From Escherichia coli (lineage in GTDB: Bacteria; Pseudomonadota; Gammaproteobacteria; Enterobacterales; Enterobacteriaceae), in NCBI RefSeq assembly GCF_030384885.1, contig NZ_CP128613.1: a DNA stretch of 64,000 nt; one strand, given 5' to 3'. The notes beneath the pieces were generated by a model. It saw only the letters and a list, made by a program, of their open reading frames with translations. It had not been told where the DNA came from and did not search any database. Position numbers and translations under genes: made by a program. Positions 1-42,444 of this stretch are shown one piece after another; the stretch's first letter is position 1, and each line of letters starts with the position of its first letter.

Positions 1-1271
1 CAGAGCGATGGCTTTATCGAGCATTGGATCGCTGCCTTTGGCATACGCGCCGACGCTAACCAGATCGCGGTTACGCTGAAAACTCGACAACAGCTGTTTG
101 AAGGTGCGCACTCGCGCGTAATGTTGCTCGCTGATCAACGCCGTCATTGCACGGCTGATCGACGCTTCAATATCAATCGCCGGATAGTGTCCGGCTTCCG
201 CCAGACGACGAGAAAGAACAATGTGACCGTCGAGGATCGCCCGTGCGGAGTCGGCAATCGGGTCCTGCTGGTCATCGCCTTCGGTGAGCACGGTATAAAA
301 CGCCGTAATTGAGCCGCCGCCGCTGATACCGTTACCGGCACGCTCGACCAGCGCCGGTAATTTGGCGAATACCGACGGTGGATAACCTTTGGTGGCAGGC
401 GGTTCGCCAATCGCCAGCGCAATCTCACGCTGGGCCATCGCGTAGCGGGTGAGGGAGTCCATAATCAGCAACACATGCTGACCACGATCGCGAAAATCTT
501 CGGCAATGCGCGTGGCATAGGCGGCACCTTGCATTCGCAGGAGCGGAGAAACATCCGCTGGAGCGGCAATCACCACGGAGCGTGCACGCCCTTCGGCACC
601 GAGGATATTCTCAATAAAATCTTTTACTTCGCGCCCACGTTCACCAATCAAACCCACGACAATGACATCGGCGCGGGTGTAACGTGCCATCATCCCCAGC
701 AGCACACTTTTACCGACACCAGAGCCAGCAAATAGCCCCATACGCTGCCCGCGACCAACGGTAAGTAGGGCATTGATTGGGCGCACGCCCGTGTCCAGCA
801 CATGTTCAATCGGTGTTCGTTGCAATGGGTTAAATGGCGGGGTGATCAGCGCACCGGTTTCTGTCGTATCGGGGGAGGGAAGGCCATCAAGCGGTTTACC
901 GCTGCCATCCAGAACGCGACCTAACAACGCCGGACCGAGTGGCAACTGCTTGCCGCTTTGCAGCCCTTCAGCCGAAATGTGTTTGGCATAAACGCGCGCG
1001 CCGGGCAGGACACCTTCCACTTCTTCCAGCGGCATTAAAAACAGCCGTTGACCGTTAAAGCCAACCACTTCGCTTTCTACTTCATGCGTTTCCGACCCGT
1101 TCTGGCGTTCAATCACACAGGTTGCGCCGAGCGGCAATTGTAATCCGGTAGCCTCCAGCACCAGCCCGGTGGCGCGGGTTAATCGCCCGTAGCGACGTAC
1201 CGCAGGCAACTGCGCCATTTTGGCTTCGAAGTTATCCAGCGTGGTTAGCCAGCGAGTCAGGCGCGTGGTCA

Positions 1272-1272
<1 letters not shown>
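1..1272 (-). CDS. fliI: Flagellum-specific ATPase FliI, partial (C-terminal end lies beyond window start)
   Basis: Minus-strand translation from ATG at 1270-1272 reads [18 protein letters not shown]...; the window start encodes ...[20 protein letters not shown]. Start codon overlaps fliH stop by 1 nt. Confidence 0.93.
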
Positions 1273-4597
<3,325 letters not shown>

Positions 4598-24678: not shown

Positions 24679-25136
24679 TTATTTTCCTCGTCATGTTGCA
24701 ATGAAAATTTGCGGTGAAAAATGTTAAGGCGGCGGAGTATACCATAAGCTTTGCTAAAAATAGCAGTGGTTGTTTTTTGAGCGTGCCGTCAACGGTGCTA
24801 TTAAATGCGTTAATATAATGACCAATAAATATTTTTATCATGAATGTTTTTTGCCCGTATTGTTCGGGTTAATTAATGTTACATATTCAGCGGGCTGATT
24901 TTCATTTTTGCTGAATAAAGGTAATTTTTGTCACATTTCGTCGCAGGGCTTACTGTGAAACGATCCGGTAAGCCGTTGGTGACGGGCGTGACCATAACTG
25001 TGGACAATCGAATTGACAAAAACGAGAGAAAAATCGAATACCCACCATTTTTAACGTTTCAAAGTTGCAATAAAAACCGCTAATATACGAATGACTAACT
25101 ATCAGTAGCGTTATCCCTATTTCTGGAGATATTCCT

Positions 25137-31938: not shown

Positions 31939-32262
31939 TTAGAGAAAGACAGGGAAGGCGGAATGATGGCACTGATATGACAAAGTGAATTCCGTATTCA
32001 AACATAAGGAACCCGCAAAGAGGCTACAGTTGCCTACTGGCTGACCAAAGGGGATAGCGTGGGTATAGCCTTCCAGCTGGCATGCGCGATCGGCGATCCC
32101 GCGACTGACATAACGATCGGTACGGGCATGCTGCAAAAAAGCCTGATCATAAACCAACCGAACAATACCTGTTGCCGCGTCAACTTCGCCCACATGAGCC
32201 TGGCGAGTAACTGTGCACCCCGCCAGCGTTATTAATGAAAGAGTCAGAATCAGAAGTCTCAT
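31939..32262 (-). CDS. yecR: Lipoprotein YecR (flagellar-regulon member by established knowledge)
   Basis: 107-aa ORF with lipobox MRLLILTLSLITLAGC. Confidence 0.85.
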   Translation of the reverse strand: MRLLILTLSLITLAGCTVTRQAHVGEVDAATGIVRLVYDQAFLQHARTDRYVSRGIADRACQLEGYTHAIPFGQPVGNCSLFAGSLCLNTEFTLSYQCHHSAFPVFL

Positions 32263-32426
32263 GGTCCAGCCAGAAGAGTAAAAGAAAGCAGTATTTTACG
32301 TGTTACAGCGCTGCGACAATGGCCGGAAAAGACGCCTGGCAGGCGCTATTTCTCGCCATCTGTATGTGTCAGAAATGGGGGTGCTGCCTTTTGATTATCA
32401 TTTTTATAACATTAAAGGGGTATTTA

Positions 32427-32442
32427 TGTGATTTGCATCACA
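32427..32442. promoter_or_regulatory. CRP-binding site upstream of azuC
   Basis: TGTGA-tttgca-TCACA, a perfect match to the CRP half-site consensus; about 85 nt upstream of the azuC ATG. Confidence 0.6.
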
Positions 32443-32524
32443 TAAAGATTGATTTTTGTGATGGTTGTCATATTATAAGTGCAAAGACAATAACACCTGC
32501 ATAACAAATAGTCGGAGTGCCGCG

Positions 32525-32611
32525 ATGAAACTGCGCAAGATCCTGAAAAGTATGTTCAATAACTATTGCAAGACGTTCAAAGACGTACCGCCAGGCAATA
32601 TGTTCCGATAA
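32525..32611 (+). CDS. azuC: 28-aa small membrane-associated protein AzuC
   Basis: ATG 32525 to TAA 32609-32611, MKLRKILKSMFNNYCKTFKDVPPGNMFR; below the ORF-track size cut-off. Confidence 0.85.
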   Translation: MKLRKILKSMFNNYCKTFKDVPPGNMFR

Positions 32612-32639
32612 CAAAAAACCTGCTCCGGCAGGTTTTTTT
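32612..32639 (+). terminator. Rho-independent terminator after azuC
   Basis: aaaaaacctgc-tccg-gcaggttttttt. Confidence 0.8.
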
Positions 32640-33558: not shown

Positions 33559-34354
33559 ACCTAATATCCTTATATCCAGAAGTGGAGAGGTGCAAGATAA
33601 ATCAAAACACCATAATTACTGTTTGCAGAATAATTCCTTTCTGCCGGTCCGAAATGTGATCGTGGAGTCAATTCTGACGATGATCTGAAATAAGAATAAC
33701 GTCTGAACGGGTATAAGAAAATGCTTAAATCATCAAGTTTATATATTTTTACATTTCATTGATGAAATCAATGTAACTGCAATGAATTTTAATGATGATG
33801 CTTTTTGTATCTTGTTGATATTAATAGGGGGATTTGAATTCATGATGAAGCAATGATTTTTTAAAACGTTTTTTCATTTTTGCGATATGGCTCTCAGTAT
33901 ACGTGTTCTGTTAATTAATGAGCACGGTGATAATTAATGGCGAAATGAATGACGCTCATTTTCCACATCTTTGAGTTGCGGTTATTACACCATTTCAAAA
34001 ACTCAACGCCAGGTAATGCAGCCTATTGACTGGTTAAAAAGAAGACATCCCGCATGGGTACCAAAGACAACAAGGATTTCCAGGCTAATCTTATGGATTA
34101 ATCTGCTGCGTGCTCGGTGATTTGTCTGACAAATAAGCTTTTCCTTATGTCTTTTCCCGCTAAATTTATGCACGTTCTCACTGTAATTCTGCGATGTGAT
34201 ATTGCTCTCCTATGGAGAATTAATTTCTCGCTAAAACTATGTCAACACAGTCACTTATCTTTTAGTTAAAAGGTAATGCTTTGTTTTCCGATTAAATTAA
34301 CGAGAGTTATTCGTTTTTGCCCTACACAAAACGACACTAAAGCTGGAGAGAACC
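33559..34354. promoter_or_regulatory. AT-rich divergent ftnB / araFGH control region (AraC- and CRP-dependent araF promoter by established knowledge)
   Basis: About 800 bp of AT-rich non-coding DNA between divergent genes; individual sites not mapped. Confidence 0.4.
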
Positions 34355-40730: not shown

Positions 40731-41512
40731 AACCTGTTCCTTATTCTGTGAACTTCAGGTGACATTAAAGCTTTACTCCTAATGGAGAATCGACGCAATC
40801 CCAACTCAGTCAAACAGGTAAATATTAGTGTGATTATTAGTAAATACAATTAATCAATCACTCTCGGTGATCATATGATTTCAACTGTAATTATAAGAAA
40901 ATATTGTACTGATTCTCCATATTAAACAAGTGGTTAATATATCTAAAACATTTTGTTAACATTAAGTGGGTTGTTGCCTGTCTTTGCCTTTAATCAGTTT
41001 ATTGTGTTGTAAGTGCCTGTTTGTAAATAGATTAACTGATTTTGGATTTGACCAATTATTTATAGCAGATGATTATTTACGGTGAGTTATTTTAACTGTG
41101 CGAAACATCTCATTTCGATTATTACGGTTTCACTTTTGCTTACCATCGGTGTGAAAAACTTTTTAACAGATTGAAATACACCCAAAACAAAAGTATGACT
41201 TATACATTTATGTTAAGTAATTGAGTATTTTATGTGATCTGCATCACACATTATTGAAAATCGCAGTACCCCTCCGTTGTATGTGCGTGTAGTGACGAGT
41301 ACAGTTGCGTCGATTTAGGAAAAATCTTAGATAAGTGTAAAGTACCCCCTCTATTTGTAAGGACCTATTAAACCCAATAAGGTGGGGGCTGTTTTATTGC
41401 AGCTTATCGCAACTATTCTAATGCTAATTACTTTTTACCGGGGCTTCCCGGCGACATCACGGGGTGCGGTGAGACCGCATAAAAATAAAGTTGGTTATTC
41501 TGGGTGGGAATA
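40731..41512. promoter_or_regulatory. flhDC master-operon control region (class 1 promoter with multiple regulator inputs by established knowledge); no IS element inserted here
   Basis: About 780 bp AT-rich non-coding region upstream of flhD containing a consensus CRP site. Confidence 0.6.
41233..41248. promoter_or_regulatory. CRP-binding site in the flhDC promoter
   Basis: TGTGA-tctgca-TCACA, a perfect match to the CRP half-site consensus. Confidence 0.7.
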
Positions 41513-41863
41513 ATGCATACCTCCGAGTTGCTGAAACACATTTATGACATCAACTTGTCATATTTACTACTTGCACAGCGTCTGATTGTTCAGGACAAAG
41601 CGTCCGCAATGTTTCGTCTCGGCATAAATGAAGAAATGGCGACAACGTTAGCGGCACTGACTCTTCCGCAAATGGTTAAGCTGGCAGAAACCAATCAACT
41701 GGTTTGTCACTTTCGTTTTGACAGCCACCAGACGATTACTCAGTTGACGCAAGATTCCCGCGTTGACGATCTCCAGCAAATTCATACCGGCATCATGCTC
41801 TCAACACGCTTGCTGAATGATGTTAATCAGCCTGAAGAATCGCTGCGCAAGAAAAGGGCGTGA
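41513..41863 (+). CDS. flhD: Flagellar master regulator subunit FlhD
   Basis: 116-aa product [37 protein letters not shown]...; the track ORF starts 3 codons earlier at 41504 (MGIMHT...). Confidence 0.92.
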
Positions 41864-41865
41864 TC

Positions 41866-42444
41866 ATGAGTGAAAAAAGCATTGTTCAGGAAGCGCGGGA
41901 TATTCAGCTGGCAATGGAATTGATCACCCTGGGCGCTCGTTTGCAGATGCTGGAAAGCGAAACACAGTTAAGTCGCGGACGCCTGATAAAACTCTATAAA
42001 GAACTGCGCGGAAGCCCACCGCCGAAAGGCATGCTGCCATTCTCAACCGACTGGTTTATGACCTGGGAACAAAACGTTCATGCTTCGATGTTCTGTAACG
42101 CATGGCAGTTTTTACTGAAAACCGGCTTGTGTAATGGCGTCGATGCGGTAATCAAAGCCTACCGTTTATACCTTGAACAGTGCCCGCAAGCAGAAGAAGG
42201 ACCGCTACTGGCATTAACCCGTGCCTGGACATTGGTACGGTTTGTTGAAAGTGGATTACTGCAACTTTCCAGCTGCAACTGCTGCGGCGGCAATTTTATT
42301 ACCCACGCTCACCAGCCTGTTGGCAGCTTTGCCTGCAGCTTATGTCAGCCGCCATCCCGGGCAGTAAAAAGACGTAAACTTTCCCAGAATCCTGCCGATA
42401 TTATCCCACAACTGCTGGATGAACAGAGAGTACAGGCTGTTTAA
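41866..42444 (+). CDS. flhC: Flagellar master regulator subunit FlhC
   Basis: 192-aa product [35 protein letters not shown]... with Cys4 zinc site (...CNCCGGNF...CSLCQPP...). Confidence 0.93.

What the first reader, a model, noticed from the sequence alone, without database searches (positions are those of the whole stretch)
41227..41252. Near-identical extended CRP-site motif upstream of both flhDC and azuC
Seen in sequence: tatgtgatCtgcatcaca at 41231-41248 (flhD upstream) and tatgtgatTtgcatcaca at 32425-32442 (azuC upstream), each a perfect TGTGA-N6-TCACA core with matching flanks. Established knowledge: both flhDC and azuC are CRP-activated. The similarity beyond the core suggests comparable high-affinity sites linking the motility master operon and a small-protein gene to the same catabolite signal.
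Basis: partly seen in the sequence, partly recalled or inferred. Interest (0 to 1): 0.25.

Follow-up and report, generated by a model that had tools for sequence, protein, structure and literature searches.

The report
Known CRP sites at flhDC and azuC
The two look-alike DNA motifs are real, very strong binding sites for the sugar-sensing regulator CRP, but both are already catalogued, they act in opposite directions (flhDC switched on, azuC switched off), and their resemblance beyond the core comes from strain-specific variants, not a designed link.

Summary
The only two perfect TGTGA-N6-TCACA cores in the 64 kb lie at 41233-41248 (upstream of flhD) and 32427-32442 (upstream of azuC). They are identical at 17 of 18 positions. 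A CRP weight matrix built from 222 other RegulonDB sites scores them 19.8 and 20.0 bits, above every training site.

Both sites are already known. RegulonDB lists flhDC as a CRP activator site at -71.5. It lists azuC with two CRP repressor sites, at -48.5 and -18.5. The azuC spacer was the most abundant CRP clone in a published genomic SELEX.

azuC is CRP-repressed, not activated. The similarity beyond the core also does not hold up. Positions 12-13 of the azuC spacer occur as GC, GT, AC and AT among E. coli strains. The flhD flank A is carried by 230 of 5426 genomes. The commonest E. coli alleles share only 5 of 8 non-core positions. The unrelated udp site matches azuC at 8 of 8. Across 97 Enterobacteriaceae species the flhD core and flanks are conserved, but there are 60 different spacers.

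Verdict: ordinary and already explained. The window is E. coli.

The parts
41230..41251 (.). CRP site of the flhDC promoter (22-mer TTATGTGATCTGCATCACACAT; core 41233-41248), centred at about -71.5. This is a class I activating position.
   Evidence: Sequence. PWM score 19.76 bits. RegulonDB lists flhDC as activator at -71.5 with the K-12 allele TGTGATCTGCATCACG. There are no indels between the site and the -10 element relative to K-12. 96 of 97 species have a perfect core at the equivalent place.
41277..41305 (+). flhDC core promoter: weak -35 TTGTAT (41277-41282), 17-bp spacer, -10 TACAGT (41300-41305). The inferred start is about 41312.
   Evidence: Read directly. The start is inferred from the RegulonDB -71.5 position and from the 3-nt insertion in the window's 5' UTR relative to K-12. 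The consensus scan does not report it because the -35 is weak, as expected for an activator-dependent promoter. This is an inference.
41513..41863 (+). flhD coding sequence (flhC follows, ending at 42444).
   Evidence: ORF list and the annotation of the syntenic records.
32424..32445 (.). azuC CRP site 1 (22-mer TTATGTGATTTGCATCACATAA; core 32427-32442). It is centred at -48.5 (RegulonDB) or -51.5 (using the +1 of Raina 2022) and abuts the -35 element. It is a repressor site.
   Evidence: Sequence. PWM score 20.01 bits, the top 22-mer in the window. RegulonDB lists azuC as repressor at -48.5. The yecJ-yecR spacer gave 59 of 160 SELEX clones. Geometry.
32454..32475 (.). azuC CRP site 2 (TTTTGTGATGGTTGTCATATTA; core 32457-32472). 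It is centred at -18.5 / -21.5, and spans the -35/-10 spacer and most of the -10 hexamer.
   Evidence: PWM score 15.46 bits, rank 3 in the window. RegulonDB lists azuC as repressor at -18.5. It is invariant in the nine E. coli strains examined that include the azuC region. A tandem partner exactly 30 bp from site 1 is conserved in four other genera.
32449..32476 (+). azuC (AzuCR/IsrB) sigma-70 promoter: TTGATT, 16 bp, TATTAT. The +1 is at about 32483-32486.
   Evidence: Promoter scan. Raina 2022 gives the coding sequence as +40 to +126, which places +1 at 32486.
32525..32611 (+). azuC coding sequence (28 aa, MKLRKILKSMFNNYCKTFKDVPPGNMFR) within the AzuCR/IsrB RNA. An intrinsic terminator stem CCTGC/GCAGG plus a T-run lies at 32619-32639.
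   Evidence: and the annotation.
31939..32262 (-). yecR, transcribed divergently from the same spacer. It is context only and is not regulated through these CRP sites as far as tested.
   Evidence: Annotation. It is a direct FlhDC target. Loci with yecR but no azuC lack a strong CRP site.

Best explanation
These are two independent, already catalogued cAMP-CRP operators in an E. coli chromosome. They read the same catabolite signal with opposite outcomes because of where they sit in their promoters. At flhDC a single site centred at -71.5 puts CRP on the correct helical face to contact the RNA polymerase alpha C-terminal domain, which is class I activation of a promoter with a weak -35. At azuC, a very strong site 1 (-48.5/-51.5) abuts the -35 hexamer at a non-activating position. 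A weaker site 2 lies 30 bp downstream (-18.5/-21.5) and covers the -35/-10 spacer and part of the -10. CRP occupancy there excludes RNA polymerase, so AzuCR/AzuC is made in glucose and shut off when cAMP rises. The near-identity of the two sites comes from three things: both sit near the CRP optimum (TGTGAT....ATCACA with T/A-rich flanks); they share bases at unconstrained central spacer positions; and this strain carries particular alleles (A at flhD position 3, GC at azuC positions 12-13). What is shown here: the sequences, PWM scores, positions, conservation and polymorphism. What is taken from the literature: CRP binding in vitro (SELEX) and the direction of regulation. What is inferred: the alpha-CTD contact and the occlusion mechanism.
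For: Two perfect cores against 0.11 expected. PWM scores of 19.76 and 20.01 bits, above all 222 training sites; azuC site 2 scores 15.46. RegulonDB entries: flhDC activator at -71.5; azuC repressor at -48.5 and -18.5. Genomic SELEX: the yecJ/yecR spacer is the top clone (59 of 160), and flhD and isrB are among the SELEX-positive known targets. azuC is CRP-repressed at the transcriptional level. CRP activates the flhDC P1 promoter. The class I positions are -61.5, -71.5, -82.5 and -92.5, and class II is -41.5. Geometry of the azuC promoter. The flhD site has a perfect core in 96 of 97 species and lies 260-305 nt from the ATG in 88 of 97, with 60 distinct spacers. The tandem azuC sites 30 bp apart are conserved in Citrobacter, Enterobacter, Kluyvera and Intestinirhabdus. 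The spacer and flank positions behind the extended identity are polymorphic within E. coli. Unrelated sites match just as well: udp at 8 of 8 and 7 of 8, cdd at 7 of 8.
Against: No CRP binding or expression data exist for this strain's alleles. As far as the sources I could read show, the azuC sites are described as 'predicted' in Raina 2022 and rest on a crp-deletion phenotype plus SELEX, not a footprint. Neither Hemm 2010 nor Soutourina 1999 was available to read. A 2025 IPOD-HR study says the main occupancy changes at the isrB promoter are not at the annotated CRP sites, and attributes repression also to FNR, PhoP and NarP. Taken alone, the 7 of 8 non-core identity of the window pair is nominally unusual among strong CRP sites (P about 0.002-0.01).
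Confidence: 0.9

Rival explanations
1. One reading: the extended identity is functional. On this view the two sites are matched in affinity, or share ancestry, so that flhDC and azuC are co-activated at the same CRP-cAMP threshold.
For: Identity of 17 of 18 (19 of 20) positions. PWM scores nearly equal at 19.76 and 20.01 bits. A 7 of 8 non-core identity is rare among random pairs of strong sites (P about 0.002-0.01).
Against: azuC is repressed, not activated. The identity depends on which alleles a strain carries. The flhD A-allele is in 230 of 5426 genomes, and the azuC GC spacer is in 984 of 5426. The commonest alleles share only 5 of 8 non-core positions. The central spacer bases vary freely within E. 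coli and between species. azuC site 1 in other genera reads CGTGA with different spacers. The flanking DNA shows no significant similarity, with left-flank P of 0.06-0.11 and nothing on the right. The udp site matches azuC even better.
Confidence: 0.04
2. The extended motif GTGAT-N4-ATCAC makes one or both sites dual CRP/FNR operators, so the shared flanks would reflect recognition by FNR (consensus TTGAT-N4-ATCAA) as well as by CRP.
For: Both sites match the FNR consensus at 8 of 10 positions. An FNR ChIP-seq peak at K-12 position 1986025, assigned to yecR as FNR-repressed, converts to about the azuC +1. A 2025 study reports FNR-dependent repression of isrB through a motif at 1988039-1988058, which by my conversion lies on CRP site 1. 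FNR and CRP sites overlap at guaB, ptsH and uxaB.
Against: Both half-sites carry G, not T, at the base that distinguishes CRP from FNR sites (established knowledge of CRP/FNR specificity, not tested here). Mutating the reported 'FNR' motif would also destroy CRP site 1, so that experiment is confounded. There is no evidence for FNR at flhDC: the earlier FNR effect on flagellar genes was traced to an insertion upstream of flhDC. The coordinate conversion between genome versions is my own.
Confidence: 0.2
3. The strong azuC site 1 mainly serves the divergent flagellar gene yecR. That would give a CRP to FlhDC to yecR feed-forward loop and a real mechanistic tie between the two loci.
For: yecR shares the 262-bp spacer with azuC. 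It is a strong direct FlhDC target (expression 653 falling to 2 in the flhD deletion) and encodes an LP-ring-associated protein. Shimada 2011 could not say which of the divergent genes is the target.
Against: Site 1 is centred 172 nt from the yecR ATG and about 110 bp from the FlhDC ChIP peak centre. Four loci with yecR but no adjacent azuC have no strong CRP site upstream, with best scores of 6.5-10.5 bits. Four genera with azuC keep the tandem sites at fixed distance from azuC. The sample is small, and the yecR start site was not available.
Confidence: 0.08
4. The motifs are chance matches with no function.
For: None beyond the fact that palindromes of this kind occur at a low rate by chance (0.11 per 64 kb).
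Against: Two found against 0.11 expected. Both lie in promoter spacers of genes with published CRP dependence. SELEX recovered both loci. The flhD site is deeply conserved across species.
Confidence: 0.01

Closest known systems
flhDC CRP site at -71.5 (RegulonDB site ECK120013055; Soutourina et al. 1999, J Bacteriol 181:7500, as cited)
   Same: Same locus and same position relative to the promoter. The spacer TCTGCA and left half-site are the same, and it is a class I activating site.
   Different: The K-12 reference allele is TTGTGTGATCTGCATCACGCAT, with an imperfect right half-site TCACG and a score of 16.2 bits. The window has A at position 3 and a perfect TCACA (19.8 bits). The perfect core is the E. 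coli norm (at least 4403 of 5426 genomes). The K-12 allele is in 405 genomes.
azuC/isrB CRP repressor sites at -48.5 and -18.5 (RegulonDB ECK125108619 and ECK125108617; Hemm et al. 2010, as cited by Raina et al. 2022)
   Same: Same two sites at the same distances from the promoter and the coding sequence. Site 2 is identical.
   Different: One base differs in the unconstrained spacer of site 1: TTTGCA here against TTTGTA in K-12. The window allele is in 984 genomes and the K-12 allele in 2634 of 5426. The PWM score is essentially unchanged (20.0 against 20.2).
udp distal CRP site at -93.5 (TTATGTGATTTGCATCACTTTT, RegulonDB)
   Same: It shares TTATGTGATTTGCATCAC with the window azuC site, which is 18 consecutive bases and 8 of 8 non-core positions. 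It shares 7 of 8 with the flhD site.
   Different: It is an unrelated promoter, regulated together with CytR, and its right half-site is imperfect (TCACT). It shows that the extended motif recurs among strong CRP sites with no link to flhDC or azuC.
ICAP consensus CRP site AAATGTGATCTAGATCACATTT
   Same: The PWM built here recovers exactly this consensus. Both window sites share TGTGAT....ATCACA with it.
   Different: The window sites match 16 of 22 (flhD) and 15 of 22 (azuC) positions. The consensus scores 23.9 bits.

Membership tests
cAMP-CRP DNA site | 22-bp two-fold symmetric site with TGTGA-N6-TCACA pentamers | tested here: met
   Perfect pentamers at 41233-41248 and 32427-32442. The symmetry extends to 6-bp arms at flhD and 10-bp arms at azuC.
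cAMP-CRP DNA site | Weight-matrix score within the range of experimentally supported sites | tested here: met
   Scores of 19.76 and 20.01 bits, against a training median of 10.5 and a maximum of 19.63. The matrix came from 222 RegulonDB sites, with azuC and flhDC left out.
cAMP-CRP DNA site | cAMP-dependent binding of CRP protein to the DNA | not testable with these tools
   Literature only, for the K-12 alleles. Genomic SELEX recovered the yecJ/yecR spacer as the top clone, and flhD and isrB as positives. Nothing is available for this strain's alleles.
cAMP-CRP DNA site | Evolutionary conservation of contact positions with free variation at non-contact spacer positions | tested here: met
   flhD: positions 4-8 and 15-19 are invariant or nearly so across 78 distinct orthologous sites, with 60 different spacers. 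azuC: the core and flanks are invariant, while positions 12-13 show four alleles in E. coli.
Class I CRP-activated promoter | Site centred near -61.5, -71.5, -82.5 or -92.5, upstream of a promoter with weak core elements | tested here: met
   For flhD: -71.5 by RegulonDB. The spacing from the site to the -10 element is identical to K-12. The -35 TTGTAT matches the consensus at 3 of 6 positions. The start site itself is inferred, not measured here.
   The azuC sites are centred at -48.5/-51.5 and -18.5/-21.5. The literature reports repression by CRP.
CRP-repressed promoter by occlusion | CRP site overlapping the core promoter elements | tested here: met
   Site 2 (32454-32475) covers the -35/-10 spacer and overlaps the -10 TATTAT at 32471-32476. 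Site 1 ends 3 bp before the -35 TTGATT. Occlusion itself is an inference.
FNR DNA site | TTGAT-N4-ATCAA, with T (not G) at the position that discriminates against CRP | tested here: not met
   Both sites read GTGAT-N4-ATCAC, an 8 of 10 match with G and C at the discriminating positions. Published FNR ChIP and mutational data near azuC leave some doubt.
Duplicated or homologous regulatory module | Similarity extending significantly beyond the protein-binding site | tested here: not met
   Local alignment scores for the left flank are no better than dinucleotide shuffles (P 0.06-0.11), and the right flank shows none. In strain 97-3250 P is 0.30.

The most novel reading that the evidence does not exclude
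In the minority of E. coli lineages that combine the stronger flhD allele (A at position 3, perfect core) with the azuC GC-spacer allele, the two operators may have effectively equal CRP affinity. One cAMP threshold would then switch motility on and AzuCR off together, as a matched reciprocal switch. The K-12 laboratory reference, with its weaker TCACG site, would under-represent this. A related possibility is that the FNR and PhoP sites published for the isrB promoter are really CRP site 1, which would call for reinterpreting those mutational data.
Probability: 0.1. Interest if true: 0.3.

Novelty: already known. Interest (0 to 1): 0.08.

Why it matters
It matters little beyond correct annotation. 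Both operators and their regulatory directions are in RegulonDB and the primary literature. Three useful points come out of the check. First, azuC must be filed as CRP-repressed, so the two loci are wired reciprocally, not co-activated. Second, the K-12 flhDC CRP site used as the reference is a minority, weaker allele. At least 81% of complete E. coli genomes, and 96 of 97 related species, carry a perfect core. That may matter when K-12 motility regulation is extrapolated to natural isolates. Third, resemblance between strong transcription-factor sites beyond the core is expected and should not be read as a specific link.

Tried and rejected
1. I tried to read the primary papers, Hemm 2010 (PMC2798279) and Soutourina 1999 (PMC94207), and also Zhang 2017 (PMC5775904). 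None is held. I relied on secondary citations and on the RegulonDB rows reproduced in Shimada 2011.

2. Literature searches for in vivo CRP ChIP data at these loci gave nothing usable. In the one cAMP-titration study found, the cyaA strain carried a flhC deletion, so flagellar genes were excluded.

3. I tested duplication or shared ancestry of the two regions. blastn produced a 50-column gapped alignment into the AT-rich left flank, but it is not better than shuffles, so I rejected it.

4. I tested whether site 1 belongs to yecR. I rejected this on cross-species co-occurrence, with a small sample.

5. The consensus promoter scan does not find the flhDC promoter because of its weak -35. It also misses the AzuCR terminator, probably because the A-run pairs with the T-run. 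I read both directly from the sequence.

6. I did not run protein-database, structure or metagenome searches. They have no bearing on a DNA operator question.

Full report
**1. The observation.** They are the only perfect TGTGA-N6-TCACA cores in the 64 kb. Shuffling gives an expectation of 0.11, and none of 100 shuffles reached two matches. The ungapped identity runs to 19 of 20 bases. azuC site 1 is itself a palindrome with 10-bp arms, TTTATGTGAT / ATCACATAAA. A second CRP-like site, TGTGAtggttgTCATA at 32457-32472, lies 30 bp downstream of it, centre to centre.

**2. Where the window comes from.** The window is an E. coli chromosome. Gene order is yecR, azuC, yecJ, ftnB, araFGH, otsBA, uspC, flhDC, the same as in K-12. 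The closest complete genome is strain 2013C-4282, at 99.8-99.9% identity. Most E. coli genomes are 96-97% identical across the azuC region but only 91-92% identical across 40900-41600.

I built a symmetric 22-bp matrix from 222 RegulonDB CRP sites printed in Table S4 of Shimada et al. 2011 (PMC3105977). The azuC and flhDC sites were left out. The matrix recovers the textbook consensus AAATGTGATCTAGATCACATTT.
- azuC site 1 scores 20.01 bits and the flhD site 19.76 bits.
- Both exceed every training site (maximum 19.63, median 10.5).
- They rank first and second among all 22-mers in the window. azuC site 2 ranks third at 15.46 bits.
- The refutation criterion of low PWM scores is therefore not met.

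**4. Published coordinates.** The same table reproduces the RegulonDB entries. flhDC is listed as an activator site at -71.5, TTGTGTGATCTGCATCACGCAT. azuC is listed with two repressor sites, at -48.5 (TGTGATTTGTATCACA) and -18.5 (TGTGATGGTTGTCATA). In the genomic SELEX of that paper, the yecJ-yecR spacer, which contains azuC, was the most abundant CRP clone at 59 of 160. flhD and isrB (the older name for azuC) are among the known targets recovered. Alignment with K-12 shows no indel between the flhD site and the -10 element, so the -71.5 position holds in the window. A 3-nt insertion further down the 5' UTR puts the inferred start near 41312. For azuC, Raina et al. 2022 (PMC8915982) give the coding sequence as +40 to +126. 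That places +1 at 32486 and the two sites at -51.5 and -21.5. A TTGATT-16-TATTAT promoter lies at 32449-32476.

**5. Direction of regulation.** [quoted passage not shown] They report elevated levels in a crp deletion mutant, and they call AzuCR a CRP-repressed transcript. The geometry fits. Site 2 covers the -35/-10 spacer and part of the -10. Site 1 abuts the -35 at a position that is neither class I nor class II (one search gives the class definitions). flhDC activation by CRP is supported by RegulonDB and by the Salmonella P1 promoter work. The two loci therefore read one signal with opposite sign. The alpha-CTD contact at flhDC and promoter occlusion at azuC are inferences from position, not results of this study.

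**6. Is the similarity beyond the core meaningful?** Four lines of evidence say no.
- *It depends on which alleles a strain carries.* Counts of exact 28-30-mers in 5426 complete E. coli genomes are as follows. For flhD, TTATGTGATCTGCATCACACAT (the window allele) is in 230 genomes, TTGTGTGATCTGCATCACACAT in 4173, and the K-12 allele with TCACG in 405. For azuC site 1, the spacer TTTGCA (window) is in 984 and TTTGTA in 2634. TTTACA and TTTATA also occur. The window pair shares 7 of 8 non-core positions. The K-12 pair, and the pair formed by the commonest allele at each locus, share 5 of 8.
- *Five of eight is unremarkable.* Among pairs of strong RegulonDB sites, P(5 or more of 8) is 0.15-0.22. 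Only 7 of 8 is nominally rare, at 0.002-0.01.
- *Unrelated sites match as well or better.* The udp -93.5 site (TTATGTGATTTGCATCACT) matches azuC at 8 of 8 and flhD at 7 of 8. The cdd site matches flhD at 7 of 8.
- *Other species do not share it.* I recovered flhD loci from 109 Enterobacteriaceae genome records with a degenerate pattern on the FlhD N-terminus. Of the 97 with enough upstream sequence, 96 have a perfect core and 88 have it 260-305 nt from the ATG. Positions 1-3 and 20-22 are conserved as T/A-rich flanks. The 78 distinct sites carry 60 different spacers. azuC homologues in Citrobacter amalonaticus, Enterobacter hormaechei, Kluyvera ascorbata and Intestinirhabdus alba keep two CRP-like sites exactly 30 bp apart in front of the same promoter. 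There, site 1 reads CGTGA in three of them and TGTGA with an imperfect right half-site (TCGCA) in Kluyvera, with other spacers and flanks.

The shared T at position 9, A at position 14 and the T/A flanks are CRP's own preferences. The shared central GC is coincidence. The DNA flanking the two sites is no more alike than shuffles: left flank P of 0.06-0.11 and nothing on the right. There is no sign of duplication.

**7. Rivals considered.**
- *An FNR component is possible at azuC.* GTGAT-N4-ATCAC matches the FNR consensus at 8 of 10 positions. An FNR ChIP-seq peak converts to about the azuC +1. A 2025 NAR paper reports FNR, PhoP and NarP repression of isrB. By my coordinate conversion, their FNR and PhoP motif hits (K-12 1988039-1988063) fall on CRP site 1 (window 32424-32448). 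Their binding-site mutations would then also destroy the CRP site. Both half-sites carry the G that discriminates for CRP, and there is no FNR evidence at flhDC.
- *Site 1 serving the divergent yecR is unlikely.* yecR is a direct FlhDC target and an LP-ring protein. However, the CRP sites go with azuC and not with yecR across species.

**8. Novelty and verdict.** Both sites, their positions and their regulatory directions are already in RegulonDB and the literature. The finding is a correct observation of known operators, with one factual error (the sign at azuC) and an over-reading of the extended similarity. The only mildly new point is that the K-12 reference flhDC CRP site is a weaker, minority allele, while the species and the family as a whole keep a perfect core. 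Interest is low.

Noticed in passing
window 31939-32262 (yecR, minus strand) and about 32323: yecR shares its spacer with azuC. It is a strong direct FlhDC target (the ChIP peak converts to about 32323) and encodes a flagellar LP-ring-associated lipoprotein. The azuC locus is therefore tied to the flagellar regulon through its neighbour, not through the CRP motif.
   Followed up: partly
window 32424-32448: The FNR and PhoP motif hits published for the isrB promoter (NAR 2025, K-12 1988039-1988063) convert to positions on top of CRP site 1. The 2013 FNR ChIP-seq peak assigned to yecR converts to about the azuC +1 (32486). The reported FNR and PhoP binding-site mutants may be confounded by loss of CRP binding. 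The coordinate conversion is my own.
   Followed up: partly
window 41248 (position 19 of the flhD CRP site): The K-12 reference site has G here (TCACG) and scores 3.6 bits lower. That allele is in 405 of 5426 complete E. coli genomes. At least 4403 genomes, and 96 of 97 related species, have the perfect TCACA.
   Followed up: yes
window 32435-32436 (positions 12-13 of azuC site 1): All four allele combinations (GC, GT, AC, AT) occur among E. coli strains, while the core and flanks do not vary. This is a clean example of neutral variation at non-contact spacer positions.
   Followed up: yes
window 40911-41150 and 41331-41390: This strain's uspC-flhD spacer is a rare divergent allele. These stretches are only 72-88% identical to seven other E. 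coli strains, while the core promoter at 41151-41330 is 90-100% identical. Only 1 of 5426 genomes is at least 99% identical over 40900-41600. The second stretch lies in the flhDC 5' UTR, a target of sRNA and CsrA control.
   Followed up: partly
window 41094-41115: A further CRP-like 22-mer, AACTGTGCGAAACATCTCATTT, scores 13.1 bits and lies about 207 bp upstream of the inferred flhDC start. It scores 9.0-13.6 bits in eight other strains. It is not among the RegulonDB rows I read.
   Followed up: partly
window 24917-24938; 33878-33899; 34192-34213: Other CRP-like matches. One of 14.5 bits lies in the yecU-uvrY spacer (the K-12 equivalent differs by two bases). One of 12.6 bits lies in the ftnB-araF spacer. 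One of 9.8 bits is the RegulonDB araFGH -41.5 site.
   Followed up: no
L065 13712-13795, L086, L108, L114: AzuC-like ORFs (85-93% identical) with the same promoter and tandem CRP-like sites occur in Citrobacter amalonaticus, Intestinirhabdus alba, Kluyvera ascorbata and Enterobacter hormaechei, within about 5-10 kb of flhD. AzuC is therefore present outside Escherichia.
   Followed up: partly
L116 (CACSKA010000001.1): A record titled Chryseobacterium sp. 18061 carries an enterobacterial flhD with an upstream CRP site almost identical to that of a Citrobacter MAG (L115). The assembly is probably mislabelled or contaminated.
   Followed up: no
L001 20020-20693; L005 7718-8865: IS1 (in K-12 MG1655) and an IS3-family element (in strain HS) are inserted in the uspC-flhD spacer. 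This is the well-known hotspot for motility-activating insertions. The window has no insertion there.
   Followed up: no
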